The notes under the pieces: model-generated | The model's database searches: none | What the model was told of the DNA's origin: nothing | Seen by the model: only the letters and a program-made list of their open reading frames with translations | In this document: one piece after another, positions 20,351 through 50,091 of the stretch | Position numbering within the stretch: position 1 is the first letter of the stretch | Layout: the number at the start of each line of letters is the position of its first letter | Position numbers and translations under genes: made by a program | Sequence record: PZ026127.1 | Source: a phage | DNA: 64,000 nt | Reading direction: 5' to 3' (one strand)

Positions 20351-21043
<693 letters not shown>

Positions 21044-34366: not shown

Positions 34367-34624
34367 ATGAAAACTTATCAAGAATTTATTACAGAATCCA
34401 CTTTAGTTTCTAAACGTTGGAATATGATTGTAAACGTTAAACCTTCCGGCACTGAAGTTTCTATGGCCGACCCTAATGATGACGAACTTGAGCACGCTTT
34501 TAGCTCTAAAGAAACTGACGAGAAAGTGGTTAAGCAACTGGTTGCTGATGCAGACCAACTTCGTAAAGTAGCAGATGTTGTTAAGCTGTTTACTAAGAAA
34601 GGTTTTAAACACGAAGAACGTTAA
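34367..34624 (+). CDS. internal head protein with capsid-targeting sequence
   Basis: 85 aa; N-term MKTYQEFITES; RBS AAGGAATAATATG identical to the preceding gene. Confidence 0.65.
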   Translation: MKTYQEFITESTLVSKRWNMIVNVKPSGTEVSMADPNDDELEHAFSSKETDEKVVKQLVADADQLRKVADVVKLFTKKGFKHEER

Positions 34625-34773
34625 TTAGCATTTTAAATGGGAGCAACCTGGACCTCACAATTCTGTGAGGGACTCCCGCCAACCTGTAATAAGGTCGAGC
34701 CCAAGTGCGGTAATGGGTAAATGCAGAAAGGGACGAATTAATGTGCCAAGGAACGGCCCTCAAAGGAAATACT

Positions 34774-35301
34774 ATGAAATTTTTAACTCCCATTTATCTA
34801 ACCTTAATGCACGCCTTCGCTGAACGCGCCATTGAACGTTTAGACTCAGACCAATATACCTGGTATGAACCTGCTTCAAGAATGCAAGAGTTTGGTACTC
34901 TTCGACTTGATGGCGGACGCCAAACAGGTAAAACAAGTGCCCTTGCTCAGTTCGCCGCTGATTGGGTTTCCAAGGGTAATGATGTGATTGTTATGTCGAG
35001 TTCTTCGCATCGCTCGCGAGAAATTTGTAATGTAATAAAACAGGTTTCTAAGGCACACCCACATCTCCAAGTCGAAGGTCCTGGTTTTGTTGTCTATGAT
35101 ACTGTGCGCAGTTTCCTTGATGAAGACAATTTCCATAAGTATCGTGGACTATCTGTTACTCGATTATTGATTATTATCGAAGAGCCAATGCGCCTTCCAG
35201 CGATGGATAAGTTCTATGAAGCTTACCAGGTAATGATTAATAAATTTATGTGCCAAGGCGACAAGCCTTTGCCTCTGTTCTTTGTGATAGGAATGCAATG
35301 A
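34774..35301 (+). CDS. small P-loop NTPase-like protein
   Basis: 175 aa from ATG 34774; Walker A-like GGRQTGKTS and Walker B-like LLIIIEE. Confidence 0.55.
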   Translation: MKFLTPIYLTLMHAFAERAIERLDSDQYTWYEPASRMQEFGTLRLDGGRQTGKTSALAQFAADWVSKGNDVIVMSSSSHRSREICNVIKQVSKAHPHLQVEGPGFVVYDTVRSFLDEDNFHKYRGLSVTRLLIIIEEPMRLPAMDKFYEAYQVMINKFMCQGDKPLPLFFVIGMQ

Positions 35302-35594
35302 TGACTGATGAAGAACTTTTTGAGTTCTGTTATTTCTCACGTAAGGTTCGAAGAGAGGACCTTACTGCAAATTTCGAATATGCTTATTTCTACCCATTGG
35401 AATATGTATTCATGACAGGGCCCTTTAAGGGCCCTCGTTTTAGATGTCATGCCCCAAGCATCCGATTAATGAAACAGGTTCCTTACTTCACCCTCGAGTT
35501 CATCTCAGGGCCTTGTAAGGGTATTATTACTCGCAGTCTCTTAACTTATGACCAAGAGATTCATATGATTTCTGATTGGAAAAAATATGTCTAA
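35298..35594 (+). CDS. hypothetical protein
   Basis: 98 aa, ATG overlapping upstream stop (ATGATGA). Confidence 0.5.
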   Translation: MMTDEELFEFCYFSRKVRREDLTANFEYAYFYPLEYVFMTGPFKGPRFRCHAPSIRLMKQVPYFTLEFISGPCKGIITRSLLTYDQEIHMISDWKKYV

Positions 35595-35805
35595 ATTGAC
35601 AATTGAAGGTTCTGAAGAAGCTCTGAAAAGATTTGTTGAATGGCTTAATGGACCAGGTGAACAAGACTTTCTGGAAGTCTGGGATGGCGGTCGGTGGAAT
35701 GGTAAAGAAATGATTTACCCGACTACCTATATCTCCGTGCAAGGTTGGACTGAAGGCCTTCGTTTGGTAGAATATGATATCGCAACTGGCGAGGAAGTGA
35801 AATGA
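35587..35805 (+). CDS. hypothetical protein
   Basis: 72 aa, overlapping start/stop with neighbours. Confidence 0.5.
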   Translation: MSKLTIEGSEEALKRFVEWLNGPGEQDFLEVWDGGRWNGKEMIYPTTYISVQGWTEGLRLVEYDIATGEEVK

Positions 35806-36080
35806 TTGAAGATATCAAGGGTTACAAACCACATACCGACGATAAAATCGGTAAAGTGAATGCTATTAAAGATGCCGAAATTCGGTTAGGGCTGATGTTT
35901 AAAGCTCTAGAAGAAGAACATGTTACCTATTATATGAACTTAGATACCGAAGAGGTTTCTGAACAAGAACTAGACCAGGCTCATGAACGCATTACCCAGA
36001 TTCGTAATGCAATTGACCGTCTGAAAGAAGCAAGCATGTGGGCGTGTCGTTCCGTTTTCCAACCCGAGGAAAAATACTGA
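35802..36080 (+). CDS. hypothetical protein
   Basis: 92 aa, ATGA overlap with upstream gene. Confidence 0.5.
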   Translation: MIEDIKGYKPHTDDKIGKVNAIKDAEIRLGLMFKALEEEHVTYYMNLDTEEVSEQELDQAHERITQIRNAIDRLKEASMWACRSVFQPEEKY

Positions 36081-36289
36081 TGAAAATTGAAAGTTTACAA
36101 GATTTCCAGCGTATCATCGGTGAAGCCTGTACTGGCTACCACAAATACTTGCTTGACGACCAAATGGCTTGTCTCGAAGAAGGTGAAGTACAGTATGCAG
36201 CCCAACGCCTTGAACAAGTGAAAGAGTTTTACCCTGTACTGGTAGAAATTTGTTCAGCTGCTGGAAAACTTACCCCATTCCAAGAATAA
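36080..36289 (+). CDS. hypothetical protein
   Basis: 69 aa from ATG 36080 (ORF-track start 36038 overlaps upstream gene). Confidence 0.5.
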   Translation: MKIESLQDFQRIIGEACTGYHKYLLDDQMACLEEGEVQYAAQRLEQVKEFYPVLVEICSAAGKLTPFQE

Positions 36290-36293
36290 AGCA

Positions 36294-36344
36294 GTTTACA
36301 TCTCCTGTAGACGTGGTACTATAGACCTATCAACTACAGGAGAT
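36294..36344 (+). promoter_or_regulatory. early promoter cassette with SD-complementary spacer
   Basis: GTTTAC 36294, -10 TACTAT 36317; ATCTCCTGTAG (36300-36310) complementary to CTACAGGAGAT (36334-36344) containing the regB SD. Confidence 0.7.
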
Positions 36345-36350
36345 TACAAA

Positions 36351-36809
36351 ATGTCAGAAATTAATTCAGAAGTATTCATCCGCCGCAATAAATTACGTCG
36401 TCAGTTCGAAACCGAATTCCGTGAACTGAATACGTCCATCAAAAAAGCCGCCATCAAGAGCGGAGTCCCAGCCTTCTTTATTAAGTACTCTAATCACTTG
36501 TTGGACCGTGCTATCCAACGTGAAATCGACGAAAAATACGTTTTTGCTTTATTCAAGCAACTCCATAACCATGTTAAAGAAATTCATGAATTTTTAATCC
36601 AGGAACCTCTACCTGATGTAGAATCCGAAATTGTCCCTGGTAAAGTGTATCGTCCATTGCGTCTCGAAATTACCGATAAAACCTTATGGCTAGGTATGAC
36701 AGTAGACCGTAAACATCCTGATAAAGGATATTCCCTTAAATGTCGTATGGCATTTGTTAACTCTAAACGTTTAGAAGGTAAAACCAGCACGAAAGTAATC
36801 TATCTTTAA
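36351..36809 (+). CDS. regB: endoribonuclease RegB
   Basis: 152 aa; ...EVFIRRNKLRR.FE.EFR.....I..........YS.HLLDRAIQREIDE.YVF.LF... matches recalled T4 RegB (153 aa). Confidence 0.9.
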   Translation: MSEINSEVFIRRNKLRRQFETEFRELNTSIKKAAIKSGVPAFFIKYSNHLLDRAIQREIDEKYVFALFKQLHNHVKEIHEFLIQEPLPDVESEIVPGKVYRPLRLEITDKTLWLGMTVDRKHPDKGYSLKCRMAFVNSKRLEGKTSTKVIYL

Positions 36810-36821
36810 TAATGAGGTCTC

Positions 36822-37361
36822 ATGAAAAAAGTATTAGCCACTTTACTATTGACAGTTAGTATGTCTGCCCATAGCGTAGAGCCTACTTTCAGTAATGAAC
36901 AACTCGATAATTTACATTATGCGTATGCTTTCGGTGAACAATACCAAAAGTCGGGAAAGTTCAAAGAAACCCCTAATCAAAAAGGATTAGGATATATCAT
37001 GGCCGGATTACTATGGCAGGAATCATCTGCCGGAATTAATCAGGGTTTAAATAAAGATAAGCACCATGCTTATGGCATGTTCCAAAATTACTTGCCTACG
37101 TTAAGAAGTCGTGTTCAACAGGTAGGTTGGAAGATGTCTGACAAAGAAATAATTCGTATGGTCCAAAAACGACAGAACAGTGCCTCTTGGGCCTACATTG
37201 AACTGTCTTATTGGATTGATGTTCACAAAGGTGACCTGAGAAAAGCGATTGCTTCTTATAATGCGGGCTGGAACGCCAAAGCAGGCAGTAAATATGCTTC
37301 TGAAGTTCTAGAAAAGGCCAATTACCTAAAATCTAAAAAGATGTTTGAGGCGGTGTATTAA
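36822..37361 (+). CDS. secreted lytic transglycosylase-like (SLT domain) protein
   Basis: 179 aa; N-terminal signal peptide MKKVLATLLLTVSMSAHS; family-1 LT motifs WQESS and SYNAGW. Confidence 0.6.
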   Translation: MKKVLATLLLTVSMSAHSVEPTFSNEQLDNLHYAYAFGEQYQKSGKFKETPNQKGLGYIMAGLLWQESSAGINQGLNKDKHHAYGMFQNYLPTLRSRVQQVGWKMSDKEIIRMVQKRQNSASWAYIELSYWIDVHKGDLRKAIASYNAGWNAKAGSKYASEVLEKANYLKSKKMFEAVY

Positions 37362-37718
37362 ATGATTAAGCAGATGACTATAGCGCTTATGTTGATTGCT
37401 CCGGGAGTATTAGCGTCACAAGTTTATGATAGTAATAATTCAATTGTCGAGTATGCTACCCGTACAGCAAAAGATTATTGTCATCCGAGTAATACTGAAT
37501 GCATTATCGAATTCAGTTCAAAAATCACAGCTGCTTTTAAAGATGGCCAGAACGACGTAGAGCATCGCCGAATGAAAGAGAAAACTCTTTCTAAAAGATA
37601 CGAGCAACGTCTAAACGTTACTGAATGTATTCCATCTGATAAAAAGTACAAAGAAATGTGCGCGTCTATGGTAGACAGACTCGTTGACTCATACAACCGA
37701 GGATTAAACTCTAAATGA
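37362..37718 (+). CDS. secreted/periplasmic hypothetical protein
   Basis: 118 aa; signal-peptide-like MIKQMTIALMLIAPGVLAS; 4 Cys. Confidence 0.55.
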   Translation: MIKQMTIALMLIAPGVLASQVYDSNNSIVEYATRTAKDYCHPSNTECIIEFSSKITAAFKDGQNDVEHRRMKEKTLSKRYEQRLNVTECIPSDKKYKEMCASMVDRLVDSYNRGLNSK

Positions 37719-38182
37719 TTATTGATTATATTAAGGGCGATATCGTCGCCCTGTTTCTTCAAGGTAATAATGTTGCACACGGGTGCAACTGTTTCCACAC
37801 AATGGGTTCAGGTGTAGCTGGGCAATTGGCTAAGGCTTATCCGCCTATTCTCGCTATTGATAAAACAACTTGTTTAGGTGATTTGGCAAAACTTGGTACG
37901 TTTACTCAAGCTACAGGTAATAAGGGTCAAATTTGCTATAATTTATACACCCAATACGAACCGGGCCCTAATCTTGATTACGGTGCTTTAGTAAACTGTA
38001 TGATAGAATTAAACCGTACCGCAAAGGGTCTTTTGTTTAAACCAAGAATTTATATCCCTCGCATCGGTTGTGGTATTGCTGGTGGTGATTGGGACAAGGT
38101 TTATCAATTGATTAATTTGTTTACTCCTGATATTAATTTAGTGGTGGTAGATTATGAAAGCCCATTACCCACATCCGTTTGA
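37715..38182 (+). CDS. macro-domain protein (ADP-ribose binding/hydrolase-like)
   Basis: 155 aa; motifs NNVAHGCNCFHTMGSGVAGQL (N..G.GVA..L) and IPRIGCGIAGGDWD (G.GI.GG) typical of macro domains. Confidence 0.65.
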   Translation: MIIDYIKGDIVALFLQGNNVAHGCNCFHTMGSGVAGQLAKAYPPILAIDKTTCLGDLAKLGTFTQATGNKGQICYNLYTQYEPGPNLDYGALVNCMIELNRTAKGLLFKPRIYIPRIGCGIAGGDWDKVYQLINLFTPDINLVVVDYESPLPTSV

Positions 38183-38366
38183 CCCTAAAAACAAAGCGGA
38201 AATTATTCGACGCTGGACCGAAACCCGAGTAACTAAATGCCCTATAAAAAGTCAACACAACACCGATAAATGGTATATTGGCGAATATGTTGAATATACT
38301 TTTATAGATAAAAATAAACGTAAACAGCATGTAGAAGAATATTGCTTAAAGGTGCAATGGTTATGA
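38154..38366 (+). CDS. hypothetical protein
   Basis: 70 aa ORF overlapping end of macro gene. Confidence 0.45.
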   Translation: MKAHYPHPFDPKNKAEIIRRWTETRVTKCPIKSQHNTDKWYIGEYVEYTFIDKNKRKQHVEEYCLKVQWL

Positions 38367-38548
38367 GTCTGAGTAAAGAACAGAAAGATAAATTGTTTGA
38401 GCTTATCCATGAACTTCTAGATGAGCATGCAGAAGCAAATTCTTTTTATGATGAATATGGCCCTATAGATGCCGAACACCTGGAAGAATTTGCCAATCGA
38501 TTTGATGAGAAAGAAAATGAATTAATAGCTTATGTAAATAGTCTTTAA
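38357..38548 (+). CDS. hypothetical acidic protein
   Basis: 63 aa from ATG 38357 (second ATG at 38363). Confidence 0.5.
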   Translation: MVMSLSKEQKDKLFELIHELLDEHAEANSFYDEYGPIDAEHLEEFANRFDEKENELIAYVNSL

Positions 38549-38557
38549 GAAGGTATT

Positions 38558-39130
38558 ATGGCCCAACTTTATTTTCACTACGCAGCAATGAATTCCGGGA
38601 AGACCGCTTCATTGCTAACAGCCGCTCATAACTACAAAGAACGTGGTATGGGCGTACTCCTTTTAAAGCCTGCGATAGACAATAGAGAATCAAGCCATAG
38701 CATTTCGTCTCGTATAGGGATTAGCCAAGAGGCTAATGCAGTGACTCCGGATATGGACCTATACGAGTTCTATCGTTGGGCTGAATCTCAAAAAGATATC
38801 CACTGTGTGTTTGTGGATGAAGCGCAGTTCTTAGAACCTGTACAGATAAAACAACTGGCAAAGATAGTAGACAATTATAATGTTCCAGTTATGTGCTATG
38901 GACTAAGAACTGATTTTCAGGGTAAACTGTTTCCTGGCTCTGCTGAATTACTCGCTACAGCAGATAAACTCGTTGAGTACAAAGGTGTGTGCCATTGTGG
39001 CCGTAAAGCTACTATGACTGCTAGGGTCCAGGATGGTATCGCAATTAAGGACGGCGCCCAAGTTTCTATAGGTGGCAACGATTCTTACGTGTCATTGTGC
39101 AGGAAGCACTGGATAGAAATAACGAGTTGA
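38558..39130 (+). CDS. tk: thymidine kinase
   Basis: 190 aa; P-loop AAMNSGKTASLL, ...CVFVDEAQFL...VPVM.YGLRTDF.GKLF.GS.ELLA.ADKL.E.K.VCHCG.KA.MTAR... matches recalled T4 Tk. Confidence 0.9.
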   Translation: MAQLYFHYAAMNSGKTASLLTAAHNYKERGMGVLLLKPAIDNRESSHSISSRIGISQEANAVTPDMDLYEFYRWAESQKDIHCVFVDEAQFLEPVQIKQLAKIVDNYNVPVMCYGLRTDFQGKLFPGSAELLATADKLVEYKGVCHCGRKATMTARVQDGIAIKDGAQVSIGGNDSYVSLCRKHWIEITS

Positions 39131-39137
39131 GGGTATT

Positions 39138-39416
39138 ATGGACCTAAATTCAAAGATTTTAATTCTAGCGTTCGCTGTGGCTATTTCTTATATTGTTCTT
39201 TCGCCTATCATGGATGATGTGGCTTACAAAAGAGAGATAGAGGTTGTAGCAGCGACGTATAATGCTAATAATAAAGAGTGTCCTAATAAAAACGGGATGG
39301 ATTTAATTAAAGCGCATTATATGCTTTCCATTACCTCGCCTATACAGAGGAATTGGGTTGAATATAATTTTAACGACGTGTTCTATTCTTATTGTCGTAA
39401 GCTTAAAAAGCTATAA
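39138..39416 (+). CDS. small membrane protein
   Basis: 92 aa; N-terminal TM helix ILILAFAVAISYIVLSPI. Confidence 0.5.
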   Translation: MDLNSKILILAFAVAISYIVLSPIMDDVAYKREIEVVAATYNANNKECPNKNGMDLIKAHYMLSITSPIQRNWVEYNFNDVFYSYCRKLKKL

Positions 39417-39508
39417 ATAATAATACTAACCGTAGAGCTTTAGCTTTTGGTAATCGCTATCGGTTAAGGCCGAAAGGCAAATAGTATAAAACAACAAAGG
39501 ACTTTTGT

Positions 39509-39802
39509 ATGGATATTTTCCGTACAGCGGCTTGTATCCTTATGGCGGGATGTTTAAGCCCTACAGTTTCACTAGCAAATGGTGCCAATGATAAATTGAT
39601 GGATGCATTTGCTAGTAGTGCGATGCCTGTTTATGCGCAAATGAGTAGACCCAGCGTAAAGGCCTCCGAAGACTATTGGGCCTATGTTACGGCTTCCTGG
39701 AAGATTTCAAGTTGTCGGACTATAGAAGCGTGCTCAATTGAAGGTCGGGCCATCGGAGAGCGTTATGTAAAACTAATGAAGGTGGAAGATGAAGTTCAAT
39801 GA
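39509..39802 (+). CDS. putative lipoprotein
   Basis: 97 aa; signal peptide with lipobox-like ILMAGC. Confidence 0.5.
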   Translation: MDIFRTAACILMAGCLSPTVSLANGANDKLMDAFASSAMPVYAQMSRPSVKASEDYWAYVTASWKISSCRTIEACSIEGRAIGERYVKLMKVEDEVQ

Positions 39803-40172
39803 TTTCGTACCCAGTCGAGGGTCTGAAGTGGATTCTTATATTGGTTGGCTACTGGTTTCTTTAGCCTATTTTAAGTCAGCCCATTTAGAAACCAAAAGCT
39901 ATGCAAGACACAAAGCGTATGACTTCTATTATGTAGAAGTTCAAGGACCACTGGACCAATTTAGTGAGCAATATCTTGGATTCAGTGGCAAAGAATATAA
40001 AGCATCATTACCGTCTGCTTCAGACTTGCCTAAGGACCCGGTAGATTTTCTTGACGAGCTTCTTAAAGCATCTGATAAAATCTATGACACCCTTCCTAAG
40101 GCCATCCAGTCGACTTTGGACGATATCACTGGCGTCTTTTACCAGACTAAGTATTTGCTGACGTTAGAATAA
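39789..40172 (+). CDS. hypothetical protein
   Basis: 127 aa ORF overlapping upstream stop. Confidence 0.5.
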   Translation: MKFNDFVPSRGSEVDSYIGWLLVSLAYFKSAHLETKSYARHKAYDFYYVEVQGPLDQFSEQYLGFSGKEYKASLPSASDLPKDPVDFLDELLKASDKIYDTLPKAIQSTLDDITGVFYQTKYLLTLE

Positions 40173-40175
40173 TCA

Positions 40176-40204
40176 AAGGTCTCACTTCGGTGGGACCTTT
40201 TTTC
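40176..40204 (+). terminator. intrinsic terminator
   Basis: GGUCUCAC-UUCG-GUGGGACC (8-bp stem, one G-U) followed by U6. Confidence 0.8.
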
Positions 40205-40212
40205 GTTTAGGT

Positions 40213-40243
40213 GTTTACATCCTCTAGGAACATGATACTATAG
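40213..40243 (+). promoter_or_regulatory. T4-type early promoter cassette
   Basis: GTTTAC 40213, -10 TACTAT 40236, TGATACTATAGACCTATCAA core; 9 nt after terminator (PeSL-like). Confidence 0.7.
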
Positions 40244-40269
40244 ACCTATCAACTAATGAGGAGAACAGT

Positions 40270-40506
40270 ATGAAACTTACAAGTACTACGGTTTCATTAG
40301 AATATGAAATCAACGGTCGTATCCTTGAGATTAAGATATTCGACGACCGAAGTATCTTCGCTGATTATCGAGGATACAGAATTCGTCTAGAAAAGGACGA
40401 GCTCAAGGAACCATGGCTCCTTAAAGACACATTAAAGGGTTGTGGATGTAAACTGAAGACTACCCAAGCCCAAGAATTAATTTCTACTATCAACAAATAC
40501 TGGTGA
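40270..40506 (+). CDS. hypothetical protein
   Basis: 78 aa; RBS GAGGAGAACAGTATG. Confidence 0.55.
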   Translation: MKLTSTTVSLEYEINGRILEIKIFDDRSIFADYRGYRIRLEKDELKEPWLLKDTLKGCGCKLKTTQAQELISTINKYW

Positions 40507-46207: not shown

Positions 46208-47077
46208 ATGAACATTAAAACACGTAAAGAATATTCCATCTATGACCATGACACGACTCGTCGTATCGCTATCGATCGGCTGGCCGACTTCGGTCATATT
46301 TGTAATGGTAATTATACTTATGGTGTAGGTCGTAAAGGGACTTATATTAGTTCTTTGAACGATTATTGCCGTTGCCCTGCTCATTTATTTGGTGCAACAC
46401 TGCGAGCTAATATCAAAGACCTCTTGGCTACTGCAGGACGTATTTCTACGGTTCCTGTCAATATCAAGAATATTAATTTTACGGCTCGTAACCTAGTCAT
46501 TAATATTCTGCCTGACGGTATTCAAGTTCGTTTCCGTCCTACCTCAAAAGGTAATAAGGCCCTTCGTGAAGCATTCGAAACCTTATTCAGAGAGGCAATG
46601 ACCCGTATTAAGGCAGTAGAATCATATAAAGTTACAACCGATGAATATGCTGATTGTTTTGAGCGGGCTGATGCAGTGTATTTTAATGTTAAACTAACTC
46701 GTGAATATCTTTTGTCTTATGCCCCTTATCAATCCCAACAAAAGGAACCACAAATGGAACGTCGTATCTCTACCGCATCATATGGGCCCGTAGGCCAGTA
46801 TGCAGCCTATGACAGATTCAAAACCACGGCTGTACCGAGTCCATTCAATTCTGAACCGTATCATTGGAAAATTAAACCCGAGAATTCTTTGGTGGTTACT
46901 AACCCTACGATGAAACCTATCGAGAAGTATCATGAGGACCACCTCCAGGAATCAATCCACCGTTTAAACGGCCAGATCGAAGATGAGAAAAAGAGTATCC
47001 AAGACGTATTGATTCGCATCAAGAACATGGAACTCCAGCGTGACAAGCTCCGCGCGGCAGTATTAGCTCTAAAATAA
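46208..47077 (+). CDS. hypothetical protein with C-terminal coiled coil
   Basis: 289 aa from ATG 46208 (ORF-track start 46184 overlaps upstream gene). Confidence 0.55.
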   Translation: MNIKTRKEYSIYDHDTTRRIAIDRLADFGHICNGNYTYGVGRKGTYISSLNDYCRCPAHLFGATLRANIKDLLATAGRISTVPVNIKNINFTARNLVINILPDGIQVRFRPTSKGNKALREAFETLFREAMTRIKAVESYKVTTDEYADCFERADAVYFNVKLTREYLLSYAPYQSQQKEPQMERRISTASYGPVGQYAAYDRFKTTAVPSPFNSEPYHWKIKPENSLVVTNPTMKPIEKYHEDHLQESIHRLNGQIEDEKKSIQDVLIRIKNMELQRDKLRAAVLALK

Positions 47078-47078
47078 T

Positions 47079-47108
47079 GTTTACATCCAAGGATGGATGG
47101 AGTATAAT
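47079..47108 (+). promoter_or_regulatory. sigma70-type early promoter (TTTACA-17-TATAAT)
   Basis: GTTTACA 47079, 17-bp spacer, TATAAT 47103. Confidence 0.7.
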
Positions 47109-47134
47109 CTTTTAAATCTACTGAGGAGAATATC

Positions 47135-48145
47135 ATGACTCGTACTGAATACATCAATGCCTTTACTACGTATATCACTACCAACACCCCTCCGTTAACC
47201 CCATACGAGGTAATAGTTTCTAATATCAATAAATGGGTCGACCAAATTGATGATGCATTATCGCGCTGTTTCAAAGCTGAAATCGAAAAGATTGCAGGCC
47301 GTTTGTGCATTCATGATATCATTAAAACATTTAAAGGTTCTCGACTGCTTTCGCGCCTGGTCAATAAGGACATCCTTTCTGAGTTCGGTAAAGAGAAATA
47401 TCCAGGTTCCAACCGTGTTGTTAGCTACAAATGGTTTGGTGATACCATAAAAGGTTATATCAAAATTAAAGGTATGGACCCTAATAGTTTATTTCCGCAA
47501 CGTTGGGTTAGCGAATTCAAGGCTAACTCTGCATTAATTCTCAAAGCGGCCTCTAAAACTATAGTTTCCGGTGATTGTCGTACTATTCACCCGATGGCTA
47601 ATTGCATGATTAAAACAAATAGTTATAAAGGAAAAGCTATTATTTCTGTTATTTGGTCACCTAATAGGAAACCTAAAGATGATGTGGAAGTTGTAAAGTA
47701 TCAAGATATTGCTTACGATACCTTGAATACTATCGAACAAGCTTTAGCTCTGATGGATACCGTAGAGAAATATGAGACCCAAGAAGTTAAACACCACTTA
47801 GGCTGGAAAGGATATGAAGTCTTAGTAACAGTCCGTGAAATCAAATGTACCGTTCCAAAAACTGATGCTGAAATTTACCAAGAAAAATGTGAGGAAATTG
47901 TGAACACTGATAAAGAGCCTGCTACATTAGAAGATTTGATTAACGACTTGAACAGCCCTATCATGGCCCCTACACCAATTACTAAATCCAAGTTACCGGA
48001 AATCGTGGCCTTAGAAAAAGCGTATAAAGATGCCCTTGCTATTAACAAAAAACTGACTGGGCAATATACCGCTGCCAAGAAACTTTGGGAAGAGTCTACC
48101 AATCGTTTAGACCGTCTTGAACAAGCTCTGGAGCTGTTGAAATGA
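47135..48145 (+). CDS. hypothetical protein with C-terminal coiled coil
   Basis: 336 aa; RBS GAGGAGAATATCATG. Confidence 0.6.
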   Translation: MTRTEYINAFTTYITTNTPPLTPYEVIVSNINKWVDQIDDALSRCFKAEIEKIAGRLCIHDIIKTFKGSRLLSRLVNKDILSEFGKEKYPGSNRVVSYKWFGDTIKGYIKIKGMDPNSLFPQRWVSEFKANSALILKAASKTIVSGDCRTIHPMANCMIKTNSYKGKAIISVIWSPNRKPKDDVEVVKYQDIAYDTLNTIEQALALMDTVEKYETQEVKHHLGWKGYEVLVTVREIKCTVPKTDAEIYQEKCEEIVNTDKEPATLEDLINDLNSPIMAPTPITKSKLPEIVALEKAYKDALAINKKLTGQYTAAKKLWEESTNRLDRLEQALELLK

Positions 48146-48363
48146 AATACCAATTAGCTGAAGATATTGACCAAACTATTCCTGATTGGAATGCCATTAT
48201 TAAAATTGTCGCACGACGAGAACAAGCTTCTAAGAACGTTCCGAACTGTCCGGAATGTGGAACTGAACAGGTTCAATTGGTCCATTGGCAGACTAGTAAT
48301 CTTCGTTACAAATGCCGCCATTGTAAACATAAATTTGAGCGAGAAGAAAATGGCAAAGCGTAA
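48142..48363 (+). CDS. small zinc-ribbon protein
   Basis: 73 aa; CPECG ... CRHCKH Cys pairs. Confidence 0.5.
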
Positions 48364-48586
48364 AGAATATGTAGAGGCTGCCGATAAGGCAGTCCGCGAA
48401 CTTACTCTAGCTTATTATAAAGAGCACGGTAAATTTCCGGACAGTTATTCAGTATTGAAATCTGCTTTAACTCGCTCGTATAATAATATACTATCTGATG
48501 TGTATAATTTAAAATATGAGCACATGGAAAAATACGGAACAGAACTCGACCGTTCTGAAGCATTCAAACAAATATTAGGAATTTAA
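48350..48586 (+). CDS. hypothetical protein
   Basis: 78 aa from ATG 48350 (ORF-track start 48167 overlaps upstream genes). Confidence 0.45.
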
Positions 48587-48587
48587 A

Positions 48588-48851
48588 ATGTTTAAAGTTT
48601 ATGGTTATGATTCAAATATTCACCGTTGTGTTTTCTGTGATAATGCCAAACGACTGCTTGATGTTAAGAAACAACCTTACGAATTCATTAACGTGATGCC
48701 GGAAAAAGGTGTATTTGATGATGAGAAGATTGCTCAACTCCTGGCTGCGCTTGGTCGCGAATCTCAAATCGGTTTGACCATGCCGCAAGTATTTGCCCCT
48801 GATGGAAGTCATATTGGTGGCTTTGACCAACTGCGAGCGTATTTCAAATGA
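48588..48851 (+). CDS. nrdC: thioredoxin/glutaredoxin NrdC
   Basis: 87 aa; MFKVYGYDSNIH.CV.CDNAKRLL.VKKQP.EFIN.MPEKGVFDDEKIA.LL..LGR..QIGLTMPQVFAPDGSHIGGFDQLR.YFK matches recalled T4 NrdC. Confidence 0.95.
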   Translation: MFKVYGYDSNIHRCVFCDNAKRLLDVKKQPYEFINVMPEKGVFDDEKIAQLLAALGRESQIGLTMPQVFAPDGSHIGGFDQLRAYFK

Positions 48852-49009
48852 TTGAATTAATGTTGGTTGTTTTGTATCTTATCATCGGTATTGGTTATGC
48901 TAAGACCCTAGCTAAATTAGATGATTCAGGTGACTTTTGTTCATGGCTGACGTCTATGATTTGTTGGCCTTTATTTCTGGTTGGTGCTTCATTCTGGAAC
49001 TTCAAATGA
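48848..49009 (+). CDS. small membrane protein
   Basis: 53 aa ORF (below ORF-track cutoff), ATGA overlap with nrdC stop; hydrophobic. Confidence 0.4.
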   Translation: MIELMLVVLYLIIGIGYAKTLAKLDDSGDFCSWLTSMICWPLFLVGASFWNFK

Positions 49010-49194
49010 CTGAATTTGATACAGCTTATGGAACCTGCGCAAGAGAGTTTACAAGTGAGTTTGATACTCCTGCGCCTAGTAAAGAAACCGTATTGGCAAA
49101 TCTCCCGGATTGGTTAAAAGAAGAAGCCAACGAATGGGGCTGGACTGATACTTGTGTACGTGACCAGCTATTTGAATTTATGGTGGAATTATGA
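49006..49194 (+). CDS. small acidic protein
   Basis: 62 aa from ATG 49006 (ORF-track start 48937 overlaps upstream ORF). Confidence 0.45.
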   Translation: MTEFDTAYGTCAREFTSEFDTPAPSKETVLANLPDWLKEEANEWGWTDTCVRDQLFEFMVEL

Positions 49195-49499
49195 TTGAAT
49201 TAAACGAACAAACCATTTTTCTAGGTGATGGTACCGAAGATGACCTGGAATATAAACTATACGAATATATGGTTTGGTTGGCTAAAGCAGAAGGTATAGA
49301 CTTTGCTGTAGCCCATCCATATGGCGAGAACACTGTTGTAATCGGCGGCACCGCTTACGAAGTCCAATGGCAATACGTTGGGCTTGAATCCGAAGAATTT
49401 GAAGAAGATGAACACGGCGATTGGCATCCGGTTGGTCCTTGGTACTGGGACAACGGTGAACCTGATTTTGAAGTAAGTTGTTATTGGTGTGACCGATAA
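49191..49499 (+). CDS. small very acidic protein
   Basis: 102 aa; E/D-rich with C-terminal CYWCDR. Confidence 0.55.
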   Translation: MIELNEQTIFLGDGTEDDLEYKLYEYMVWLAKAEGIDFAVAHPYGENTVVIGGTAYEVQWQYVGLESEEFEEDEHGDWHPVGPWYWDNGEPDFEVSCYWCDR

Positions 49500-49512
49500 G
49501 CCATGGTATGTC

Positions 49513-49575
49513 GCTCGGTGGAAAACTACCGAGCCAGAGGAACCTGTTTACAACGATTCCGAAATAGAGTATAAT
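49513..49575 (+). promoter_or_regulatory. stem-loop plus early promoter (PeSL-like)
   Basis: hairpin GCTCGGT/ACCGAGC 49513-49534, then GTTTACA 49546, 17 bp, TATAAT 49570. Confidence 0.65.
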
Positions 49576-49615
49576 GAACCTTCAAACAATGATTTAATCG
49601 ATATGGAGTTTGGAT

Positions 49616-49789
49616 ATGAGTACCAAAATTGAAGTTGGCCGTCATAAAGGCCGTCTGATTGAACATTCGCTTTACGAATTGTCGGATTCGGGTTCTTTAC
49701 CTGACTTAGAATCCGATTTGATTAAAGCTGCAGCCGATTATATTCATTGGCTTGAAGCTCAACTTCGCTTTTCCGATGGGGCCTTCTGA
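49616..49789 (+). CDS. hypothetical protein
   Basis: 57 aa ORF (below ORF-track cutoff) downstream of promoter; stop overlaps next ATG. Confidence 0.45.
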   Translation: MSTKIEVGRHKGRLIEHSLYELSDSGSLPDLESDLIKAAADYIHWLEAQLRFSDGAF

Positions 49790-50091
49790 TGAATTTATTT
49801 GAATTTGAAGGTAAAACTGTTCGTATTACTGAAGAAGATGTCGACCACTATGTTGACTGGCCTGAATTAAACGGCAATCGCGGCTTTGAATCAGGCGAGC
49901 TTTGTGAAGGCGCCGAAGTTAAAATCCTTAAGGTGGAGATTTCTCCCTGGGGCGACCCTGAAATCATCGGCGTAACTGCTATCGAATTTAATGGTAAGGT
50001 ATACGAATACACTAAAGAAATGTTTGAAGATACTAAAGCTTCATTCTGGTGTTTTTGGACTAACGATGATAATGAATTTGAGGTCGCATGA
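49789..50091 (+). CDS. small acidic protein
   Basis: 100 aa ORF. Confidence 0.55.
   Translation: MNLFEFEGKTVRITEEDVDHYVDWPELNGNRGFESGELCEGAEVKILKVEISPWGDPEIIGVTAIEFNGKVYEYTKEMFEDTKASFWCFWTNDDNEFEVA

What the first reader, a model, noticed from the sequence alone, without database searches (positions are those of the whole stretch)
37715..38182. Macro-domain protein encoded in the early regB-tk region
The 155-aa ORF carries both hallmark macro-domain motifs: N-terminal N-x6-G-x-G-V-A-x-x-L (NNVAHGCNCFHTMGSGVAGQLAKAY) and C-terminal G-x-G-I-x-G-G (IPRIGCGIAGGDWD). A phage macro domain could remove ADP-ribose marks laid down by host defence (for example DarT-type DNA ADP-ribosylation), process NAD-derived products, or tune the phage's own Alt/Mod-type ADP-ribosyltransferases. 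I cannot place it among canonical T4 genes at this locus. It lies in a run of secreted and unknown early proteins.
Basis: partly seen in the sequence, partly recalled or inferred. Interest (0 to 1): 0.65.

Follow-up and report, generated by a model that had tools for sequence, protein, structure and literature searches.

The report
T4 tk.4 (AdfM) macrodomain ortholog
This is a real macro-domain gene, but an ordinary one: it is the ortholog of phage T4 gene tk.4, recently named AdfM, which lets T4 escape the bacterial DarTG2 defence, most likely by removing ADP-ribose from phage DNA.

Summary

It is 53.5-55% identical to T4 Tk.4, with the same order regB-vs.1-vs-tk.4-tk.3-tk.2-tk. The window is a Dhakavirus-type T-even phage, about 97% identical in DNA to WG01, Bp7 and JS10.

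A 2025 preprint (HIDEN-SEQ) reports T4 tk.4 as the only transposon hit on a DarTG2 host. A clean knockout sensitised T4, and the gene was renamed adfM.

One refinement comes from this work. The family carries an invariant Gln (Q80) where DarG, TARG1 and PhiKZ AdfM have the catalytic Lys. It also keeps the Asn and Gly residues needed by Streptomyces SCO6735, a lysine-less macrodomain that cleaves thymidine-linked ADP-ribose on DNA. It has no DarT-binding C-terminal domain.

Verdict: observation confirmed, interpretation supported, already known, low interest.

The parts
37715..38182 (+). tk.4 / adfM ortholog: 155-aa single-domain macrodomain protein (coordinates include the stop codon)
37699..37703 (+). 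Shine-Dalgarno-like GAGGA, 11 nt upstream of the ATG, inside the 3' end of vs
   Evidence: Read directly from the sequence. The same GAGGA is present in T4.
37715..37718 (+). ATGA overlap: the tk.4 start codon overlaps the vs stop codon, an arrangement typical of translational coupling
   Evidence: The same 4-nt overlap is annotated in T4, Bp7 and several other genera.
37778..37828 (+). Residues 22-38, HGCNCFHTMGSGVAGQL: N-terminal ADP-ribose-binding motif with invariant H22, G23, N25, G33 and A35
   Evidence: Invariant columns of the 62-sequence family alignment. N25 aligns with SCO6735 Asn27 and with PhiKZ AdfM N23. Mutating either of those residues reduces activity (PMC9411070; PMC13309987).
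37940..37954 (+). Residues 76-80, NLYTQ: invariant N76, Y78, T79 and Q80. Q80 occupies the position of the catalytic Lys of TARG1 (K84) and DarG (K80), and of Gln85 in SCO6735
   Evidence: Profile alignments, family invariance, and the equivalence Gln85 = Lys84 = Lys80 stated in PMC9411070.
38057..38092 (+). Residues 115-126, PRIGCGIAGGDW: phosphate-binding Gly-rich loop with invariant P115, G118 and G120
   Evidence: G118 and G120 align with SCO6735 Gly126 and Gly128. A122 sits where TARG1 has catalytic Asp125.
37734..37752 (+). 8-bp hairpin followed by a T-rich run, inside codons 7-13 of tk.4 (terminator-like; role unknown)
   Evidence: Terminator scan. Folding energy -13.0 kcal/mol. Present in 5 of 10 orthologs examined, with one compensatory pair in a Vequintavirus.
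37362..37718 (+). vs (valyl-tRNA synthetase modifier) ortholog, the upstream neighbour
   Evidence: Annotation of Bp7 and WG01 at the syntenic position. No Pfam hit.
38154..38366 (+). tk.3 ortholog (DUF7202), the downstream neighbour; overlaps the last 29 nt of tk.4
   Evidence: Pfam DUF7202 at 127 bits. Bp7 annotation.

Best explanation
The ORF is the Dhakavirus ortholog of T4 tk.4 (AdfM), an orphan antitoxin-like macrodomain enzyme. It is probably co-transcribed with the neighbouring regB-vs-tk genes, which all lie on the same strand; timing and promoter were not determined here.

Proposed mechanism: host DarT2, the toxin of the DarTG2 defence, ADP-ribosylates thymidines in single-stranded phage DNA at TNTC motifs and blocks replication. 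The phage protein binds the ADP-ribose through its two Gly-rich loops and hydrolyses the thymidine-ribose bond. That releases free ADP-ribose and restores replicable DNA.

Its active site is of the SCO6735 type. An invariant Gln (Q80), held in place by an invariant Asn (N25), sits where DarG and TARG1 use a catalytic Lys. Catalysis is therefore probably water-mediated, with substrate positioning by Gln, rather than lysine-dependent. It has no DarT-binding domain, so it acts mainly on the modification and not on the toxin.

Shown here: gene, fold, orthology, synteny and active-site residues. Shown in the literature for relatives: the anti-DarTG2 phenotype of T4 tk.4, and T-ADPr-DNA hydrolysis by SCO6735 and by PhiKZ AdfM. 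Inferred: that this ortholog does the same, and by hydrolysis.
For: - Macro domain by sequence and fold.
- Orthology to T4 Tk.4: 53.5-55% identity over the full length and identical gene order. The position next to vs and tk is kept across seven further Straboviridae-type genera.
- T4 tk.4 was the single significant transposon hit on a DarTG2 host, and a clean knockout sensitised T4. T4 lacking adfA and adfN stays DarTG2-resistant, so another factor was expected (PMC11825919).
- Q80, N25, G118 and G120 are invariant in 62 homologs down to 38% identity. They align with SCO6735 Gln85, Asn27, Gly126 and Gly128. In SCO6735, Q85A abolishes and N27S nearly abolishes cleavage of DarT-made thymidine-ADPr DNA (PMC9411070).
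- A second, distantly related phage macrodomain, PhiKZ gp104, removes DarT2 ADP-ribose from DNA in vitro (PMC13309987).
- The PADLOC and NCBIfam DarG models match only their N-terminal macro part.
Against: - No experiment exists on this ortholog.
- The T4 evidence is a preprint and is genetic only. No enzymology has been reported for any Tk.4-family protein.
- Identity to T4 Tk.4 is only about 54%, and the phosphate-loop sequence differs (GCGIAGGDW here, GAGIGKGNW in T4).
- SCO6735 and TARG1 also hydrolyse protein-linked ADP-ribose, and catalytically dead SCO6735 still inhibits DarT by binding. Substrate range and mode of action therefore remain open.
- The Gln-for-Lys assignment rests on profile alignments, not on a superposition I could inspect.
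Confidence: 0.75

Rival explanations
1. The protein neutralises DarT2 mainly by binding and blocking the toxin, not by hydrolysing the DNA adduct.
For: Catalytically inactive SCO6735 Q85A inhibits DarT in vitro, more strongly than inactive DarG or TARG1 (PMC9411070). Other phage anti-DarT factors (AdfA, AdfB) are thought to act by direct interaction (PMC11481870; PMC11825919).
Against: The protein lacks the C-terminal DarT-binding domain of DarG; the DarG models are matched only over positions 3-142 of 329 and 3-138 of 338. Every residue needed for catalysis in SCO6735 is invariant in the family, which points to selection on enzymatic activity.
Confidence: 0.1
2. It is a protein de-mono-ADP-ribosylase acting on Asp/Glu-linked ADP-ribose. 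It would either reverse host defence ADP-ribosyltransferases that target phage proteins, or tune targets of the phage's own Alt/ModA/ModB. Any anti-DarT2 effect would be secondary.
For: TARG1 and SCO6735, two of the closest solved relatives, hydrolyse glutamate-linked protein ADP-ribose. T-even phages carry three ADP-ribosyltransferases.
Against: tk.4 was the only T4 gene specifically required on a DarTG2 host. Alt and Mod enzymes modify arginine (established knowledge), a linkage macrodomains are not known to cleave. TARG1's Lys84/Asp125 dyad, used for protein substrates, is absent: the aligned residues here are Q80 and A122.
Confidence: 0.08
3. It is a small-molecule enzyme, as the database names say: an ADP-ribose-1''-phosphate phosphatase ('phosphatase', 'A1pp') or an O-acetyl-ADP-ribose deacetylase. 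It would process NAD-derived metabolites, for example products of RNA repair or of Sir2-type defences.
Against: These names come from the old domain name, not from assays. As far as I know T4 RNA repair (Pnk plus RNA ligase) does not produce ADP-ribose-1''-phosphate; this is from memory and was not tested. The T4 phenotype is specific to DarTG2.
Confidence: 0.05
4. It reverses RNA ADP-ribosylation, either base-linked or phosphate-linked, laid down by RNA-targeting defence toxins.
For: RNA ADP-ribosylating defence toxins exist, such as CmdT (PMC11618068, title and abstract seen). A paper on enzymes that reverse RNA ADP-ribosylation came up in the search (PMC11833690, title and abstract only). 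It did not specify macrodomain classes in what I read.
Against: According to the abstract of PMC11618068, CmdTAC gives robust defence against T-even phages although they carry tk.4. No data link the Tk.4 family to RNA substrates.
Confidence: 0.02

Closest known systems
Phage T4 Tk.4 = AdfM (anti-DarT factor Macrodomain; bioRxiv 10.1101/2025.11.20.689424)
   Same: Full-length homolog: 53.5% identity by tblastn, 55% in the alignment, 155 aa in both. Same position between vs and tk.3, and the same ATGA overlap with vs. Same invariant H22, N25, G33, Q80, P115, G118 and G120.
   Different: About 45% of residues differ. The phosphate loop reads GCGIAGGDW here and GAGIGKGNW in T4. The host phage is a Dhakavirus, not a Tequatrovirus. 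No experimental data exist for this ortholog.
Streptomyces coelicolor SCO6735 and Bacteroides BT1257 (PDB 5E3B, 2FG1/2AFC): lysine-less ALC1-like macrodomains
   Different: Only 24-26% identity. They are bacterial chromosomal orphans, not phage genes. The segment after the Gln differs: QYEPG here, QHG plus a longer Lys-containing mobile loop in SCO6735, which that paper links to DNA processivity.
DarG antitoxin of DarTG2 (M. tuberculosis 5M3I; T. aquaticus 5M31/5M3E; T. africanus 7OMU)
   Different: The window protein has no C-terminal DarT-binding domain and no adjacent darT gene. It has Gln instead of the catalytic Lys80. It scores 24.2 bits against the 250-bit cutoff of the DarG equivalog model.
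PhiKZ gp104, also named AdfM (Cell Rep 2026, PMC13309987)
   Same: A single-domain phage macrodomain that counters DarTG2. It has the conserved Asn (N23, aligned with N25 here) and has been shown in vitro to remove DarT2 ADP-ribose from DNA.
   Different: Only 21% identity, pairwise E 3e-5. It carries the DarG-like FPTK lysine motif and a GCANGG loop, and it is imported into the phage nucleus. It is a separate branch that happens to share the name.
Human TARG1/OARD1 (4J5R/4J5S)
   Same: Best Foldseek hit: E 2.2e-9, TM 0.75-0.83, including the ADP-ribose complex. Both Gly loops are in register.
   Different: The catalytic dyad Lys84/Asp125 is replaced by Gln80/Ala122. Identity is about 20-23%.

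Membership tests
Macro domain superfamily (Pfam PF01661) | Score above the curated gathering threshold over most of the model | tested here: met
   33.4 bits against a cutoff of 22, E 4.9e-8, profile positions 2-117 of 118.
Macro domain superfamily (Pfam PF01661) | Three-layer alpha/beta/alpha macro fold | tested here: met
Macro domain superfamily (Pfam PF01661) | Conserved Asn and two Gly-rich ADP-ribose/phosphate-binding loops | tested here: met
   N25, G31-x-G33 and G118-x-G120 are present and invariant or nearly invariant in 62 homologs. They are in register with TARG1 and SCO6735. No ligand superposition could be inspected.
ALC1-like macrodomain class (TARG1, DarG, SCO6735, Poa1p) | Closer in sequence and structure to class members than to MacroD, viral or PARG-type macrodomains | tested here: met
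T4 Tk.4 / AdfM orthologous group | Full-length homology to T4 Tk.4 | tested here: met
   53.5% identity over residues 1-151 at E 1e-50 by tblastn, and 55% in the alignment.
T4 Tk.4 / AdfM orthologous group | Conserved position regB-vs.1-vs-tk.4-tk.3-tk.2-tk | tested here: met
   T4 and Bp7 annotations, Pfam on the window's neighbouring ORFs, and other genera.
T4 Tk.4 / AdfM orthologous group | Required for growth on DarTG2-carrying hosts | not testable with these tools
   Reported for T4 only. Needs a deletion or complementation experiment.
DarG antitoxin (NCBIfam NF048014 equivalog; PADLOC PDLC02990) | Score above the equivalog cutoff, with the full-length two-domain architecture including the C-terminal DarT-binding domain | tested here: not met
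   24.2 bits against a cutoff of 250. Only model positions 3-138 of 338 and 3-142 of 329 are matched. The protein is 155 aa.
DarG antitoxin (NCBIfam NF048014 equivalog; PADLOC PDLC02990) | Catalytic lysine (Lys80 in T. aquaticus DarG) | tested here: not met
   The aligned residue is the invariant Gln80. The equivalence of positions comes from PMC9411070.
DarG antitoxin (NCBIfam NF048014 equivalog; PADLOC PDLC02990) | Encoded next to a darT toxin gene | tested here: not met
   The neighbours are vs and tk.3.
SCO6735/BT1257-type lysine-less DNA ADP-ribosyl hydrolases | Gln at the catalytic-Lys position, plus the Asn that positions it and the Gly126/Gly128 loop | tested here: met
   Q80, N25, G118 and G120 align with Gln85, Asn27, Gly126 and Gly128, and all are invariant in the family.
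SCO6735/BT1257-type lysine-less DNA ADP-ribosyl hydrolases | Hydrolysis of thymidine-linked ADP-ribose on ssDNA | not testable with these tools
   Needs a biochemical assay on a DarT2-modified oligonucleotide.
Poa1p-type ADP-ribose-1''-phosphate phosphatase (source of the 'phosphatase' annotation) | Conservation of the Poa1p residues probed by the deposited mutants (H23, S30, F152) and phosphatase activity | not tested

The most novel reading that the evidence does not exclude
The T-even Tk.4/AdfM family may not be a captured DarG macrodomain. It could be a separate, lysine-less (Gln-type, SCO6735/BT1257-like) lineage that phages acquired independently of the Lys-type AdfM of PhiKZ. If so, it would use a different, water-mediated chemistry. 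Like SCO6735, it might also have a dual DNA and protein substrate range, and so protect against more than DarT2.
Probability: 0.4. Interest if true: 0.35.

Novelty: already known. Interest (0 to 1): 0.15.

Why it matters
It matters little as a discovery. The gene is a conserved, named T-even gene. Its macro domain has long been annotated: the T4 record says 'contains A1pp phosphatase motif'. Its anti-DarTG2 role in T4 was reported in 2025.

The analysis has three practical uses.
- It corrects the misleading 'phosphatase' and 'hypothetical protein' labels carried by Dhakavirus genomes.
- It predicts that this phage resists DarTG2, which is relevant to host-range prediction for therapeutic T-even phages.
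- It points out that the two phage proteins both named AdfM differ at the key catalytic residue (Gln versus Lys). That gives a simple mutational test of mechanism.

Tried and rejected
- **DarG membership.** I tested whether the protein could be filed as a DarG antitoxin. It cannot: it falls far below the equivalog cutoff, lacks the C-terminal domain, lacks the catalytic Lys and has no darT neighbour.
- **Five-sequence MAFFT alignment.** The alignment with BT1257, SCO6735 and TARG1 mis-registers the central region. I used profile alignments instead.
- **PhiKZ register.** hmmalign and BLASTP place the PhiKZ FPTK motif two residues out of register with NLYTQ. I treat this as an alignment artefact at 21% identity. 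I rely on the published structural equivalence for DarG-type lysines.
- **Structure prediction input.** I repeated it without that row.
- **Second macrodomain.** A scan of all six-frame ORFs of the window with the family HMM found none.
- **Promoter scan.** The sigma-70 scan of 34500..40500 gave 20 sites against 15.7 +/- 3.6 expected, so it is uninformative about the promoter that drives tk.4.
- **CmdTAC paper.** It mentions macrodomains only in its reference list.
- **Antisense ORF.** The ORF at 37481..37798 (105 aa, GTG start) has no support and I treat it as spurious.

Full report
**Observation**

The window has an ATG-to-TGA ORF at 37715..38182 on the + strand, encoding 155 aa. The only slip is the spacing of the first motif: it is N25-x5-G31-x-G33-V-A-x-x-L38, not N-x6-G-x-G.

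A GAGGA Shine-Dalgarno-like sequence lies 11 nt upstream of the start. The start codon overlaps the stop codon of the preceding ORF as ATGA. The next ORF begins 29 nt before the stop.

**Is it a macro domain?**

Yes, by every test.
- Pfam Macro (PF01661) scores 33.4 bits against a gathering cutoff of 22, over profile positions 2-117 of 118.
- PHROG 335 matches at E 1.3e-67.
- A single-sequence search of PDB sequences finds BT1257, SCO6735, Poa1p, M. tuberculosis DarG and TARG1.
- A profile of 62 homologs raises these to E 5.3e-20 (BT1257), 1.3e-17 (TARG1), 1.2e-16 (SCO6735), 6.4e-15 (Poa1p), and 1.5e-11 and 6.9e-10 (DarG).
- AlphaFold2 on that alignment gives mean pLDDT 94.2 and pTM 0.88.
- Foldseek against the PDB returns TARG1, Poa1p, DarG and BT1257, including their ADP-ribose complexes, at probability 1.00 and TM 0.72-0.83.

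The protein therefore belongs to the ALC1-like class of macrodomains.

**What gene is it?**

The surrounding DNA is 96-98% identical to Dhakavirus phages: WG01 and Bp7 carry that taxonomy, and JS10, IME08 and others match equally well. In those genomes and in T4, the ORF at this position is tk.4.

T4 Tk.4 is 155 aa, 53.5% identical by tblastn and 55% in the alignment. The gene order regB-vs.1-vs-tk.4-tk.3-tk.2-tk is the same. Pfam confirms RegB, Tk.3 (DUF7202), Tk.2 (DUF7438) and thymidine kinase in the window itself.

The T4 GenBank record already notes 'Tk.4; contains A1pp phosphatase motif'.

Homologs are detectable in 2729 of 50,697 phage records. They include T-even relatives, Vequintavirus, Felixounavirus, Pakpunavirus, and Vibrio and Aeromonas phages. 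In seven further Straboviridae-type genera sampled, the gene keeps its place next to a vs-like gene and tk.

**What is known about the ortholog?**

The HIDEN-SEQ preprint (bioRxiv 10.1101/2025.11.20.689424) infected a DarTG2-expressing host with a T4 transposon library. It reports tk.4 as the single significant hit. A clean knockout sensitised T4 to DarTG2. The authors renamed the gene adfM and proposed enzymatic removal of ADP-ribose from DNA.

This fits earlier work. T4 lacking both adfA and adfN stays fully DarTG2-resistant, and NADAR-type AdfN acts only on guanosine adducts, whereas DarT2 modifies thymidine (PMC11825919).

Independently, PhiKZ gp104 was also named AdfM. It was shown in vitro to remove DarT2-made ADP-ribose from a TNTC oligonucleotide, and an Asn mutant had reduced activity (PMC13309987).

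**Mechanistic detail added here**

I aligned reference sequences to the family profile (consistent).
- The invariant Gln80 falls at the position of TARG1 Lys84 and SCO6735 Gln85.
- Asn25 falls at SCO6735 Asn27 and PhiKZ Asn23.
- Gly118 and Gly120 fall at SCO6735 Gly126 and Gly128.
- Ala122 falls where TARG1 has Asp125.

PMC9411070 states that SCO6735 Gln85 is structurally equivalent to TARG1 Lys84 and DarG Lys80. It also reports that Q85A abolishes and N27S nearly abolishes cleavage of DarT-made thymidine-ADP-ribose DNA. It further finds that SCO6735 protects cells from DarT, and it proposes a water-mediated mechanism with Gln positioning the substrate.

Q80, N25, G118 and G120 are invariant in all 62 aligned homologs, down to 38% identity.

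PhiKZ AdfM, translated from the sequence printed in the paper, has a DarG-like FPTK motif. It is only 21% identical to the window protein.

So the T-even AdfM family is of the lysine-less SCO6735/BT1257 type, and PhiKZ AdfM is of the DarG lysine type. The parts of the preprint I read compare Tk.4 with M. tuberculosis DarG and do not mention this point.

**Why it is not DarG**

The NCBIfam DarG equivalog scores 24.2 bits against a cutoff of 250 and matches only positions 3-138 of 338. The PADLOC DarG model matches positions 3-142 of 329. There is no C-terminal DarT-binding domain, no catalytic Lys and no adjacent darT gene. The protein is best described as an orphan, antitoxin-like eraser enzyme.

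**Most likely function and rivals**

I put about 0.75 on hydrolysis of DarT2-made thymidine-ADP-ribose on phage ssDNA. Each rival is given with my probability.
- Neutralisation by binding the toxin, 0.1. Inactive SCO6735 can do this, but the binding domain is absent here and the catalytic residues are invariant.
- Protein de-ADP-ribosylation, 0.08. The class can do it, but the TARG1 dyad is missing, and Alt/Mod marks are arginine-linked by established knowledge.
- Small-molecule phosphatase or deacetylase, 0.05. This rests only on legacy names.
- RNA de-ADP-ribosylation, 0.02.

These are not mutually exclusive with the main function.

**Novelty and score**

The gene, its domain and the function of its T4 ortholog are already described. 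This copy is a routine ortholog, and RefSeq labels it 'phosphatase'. Interest is low, at 0.15. The residual novelty is the Gln-type active site and the possibility that phages acquired two macrodomain lineages independently against the same toxin.

**Side observations**

- Vs, annotated as a valyl-tRNA synthetase modifier, has a signal-peptide-like N-terminus in both this phage and T4.
- An 8-bp hairpin followed by a T-run lies inside codons 7-13 of tk.4. It is present in 5 of 10 orthologs examined, with one compensatory change. It may be a terminator or 3' stabiliser for the vs message.

Noticed in passing
window 37362..37718 (vs); T4 locus L001:2157-2504: Vs is annotated as a cytoplasmic 'valyl-tRNA synthetase modifier', yet it has a textbook Sec-signal-peptide-like N-terminus in both phages (MIKQMTIALMLIAPGVLAS/Q here, MTKILVLCIGLISFSASASA/D in T4) and no Pfam hit. 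That is odd for a protein said to bind a cytoplasmic synthetase. HIDEN-SEQ found vs to be the most strongly depleted T4 gene in minimal medium.
   Followed up: partly
window 37734..37752 (+), inside tk.4 codons 7-13: A terminator-like hairpin (AGGGCGAT-ATC-GTCGCCCT, -13.0 kcal/mol) is followed by a T-rich run, 20 nt after the tk.4 start. It is also present in T4, REP1, a Krischvirus and a Vequintavirus. The Vequintavirus has a compensatory change (GGGAGAT...ATCTCCC). It is absent from the Gelderland-, Karam-, Jiaoda-, Marfa- and Tulanevirus orthologs. It may be a terminator, attenuator or 3' stabiliser for the vs transcript.
   Followed up: partly
window 36822..37361 (vs.1): The Vs.1 ortholog has a signal peptide (MKKVLATLLLTVSMSAHS) and a sub-threshold match to the SLT lytic transglycosylase domain (16.2 bits against a cutoff of 21.3). 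This suggests a secreted, murein-active early protein.
   Followed up: no
window 37715..37718 and 38154..38182: The genes are tightly packed. The tk.4 start overlaps the vs stop (ATGA), and tk.3 starts 29 nt before the tk.4 stop. The tk.3/tk.2 pair also overlaps. This is consistent with a translationally coupled vs-tk.4-tk.3-tk.2 block.
   Followed up: no
window about 20588..21043, and the nrdC-proximal region about 47000..50000 (positions inferred from synteny with WG01, not verified in the window): By synteny with WG01, the window should also carry orthologs of other T4 counter-defence genes: 57B/acb1 (anti-CBASS) and nrdC.1 (anti-Septu, per HIDEN-SEQ). It should also carry the NudE nudix hydrolase, which acts on ADP-ribose, the expected product of the macrodomain reaction.
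   Followed up: no
database annotations of tk.4 orthologs: The same protein family is variously labelled 'phosphatase', 'hypothetical protein', 'macro domain protein', 'RNase III inhibitor', 'ADP-ribose binding protein' and 'O-acetyl-ADP-ribose deacetylase (regulator of RNase III)'. None of these names reflects the anti-DarTG2 role reported for T4.
   Followed up: yes
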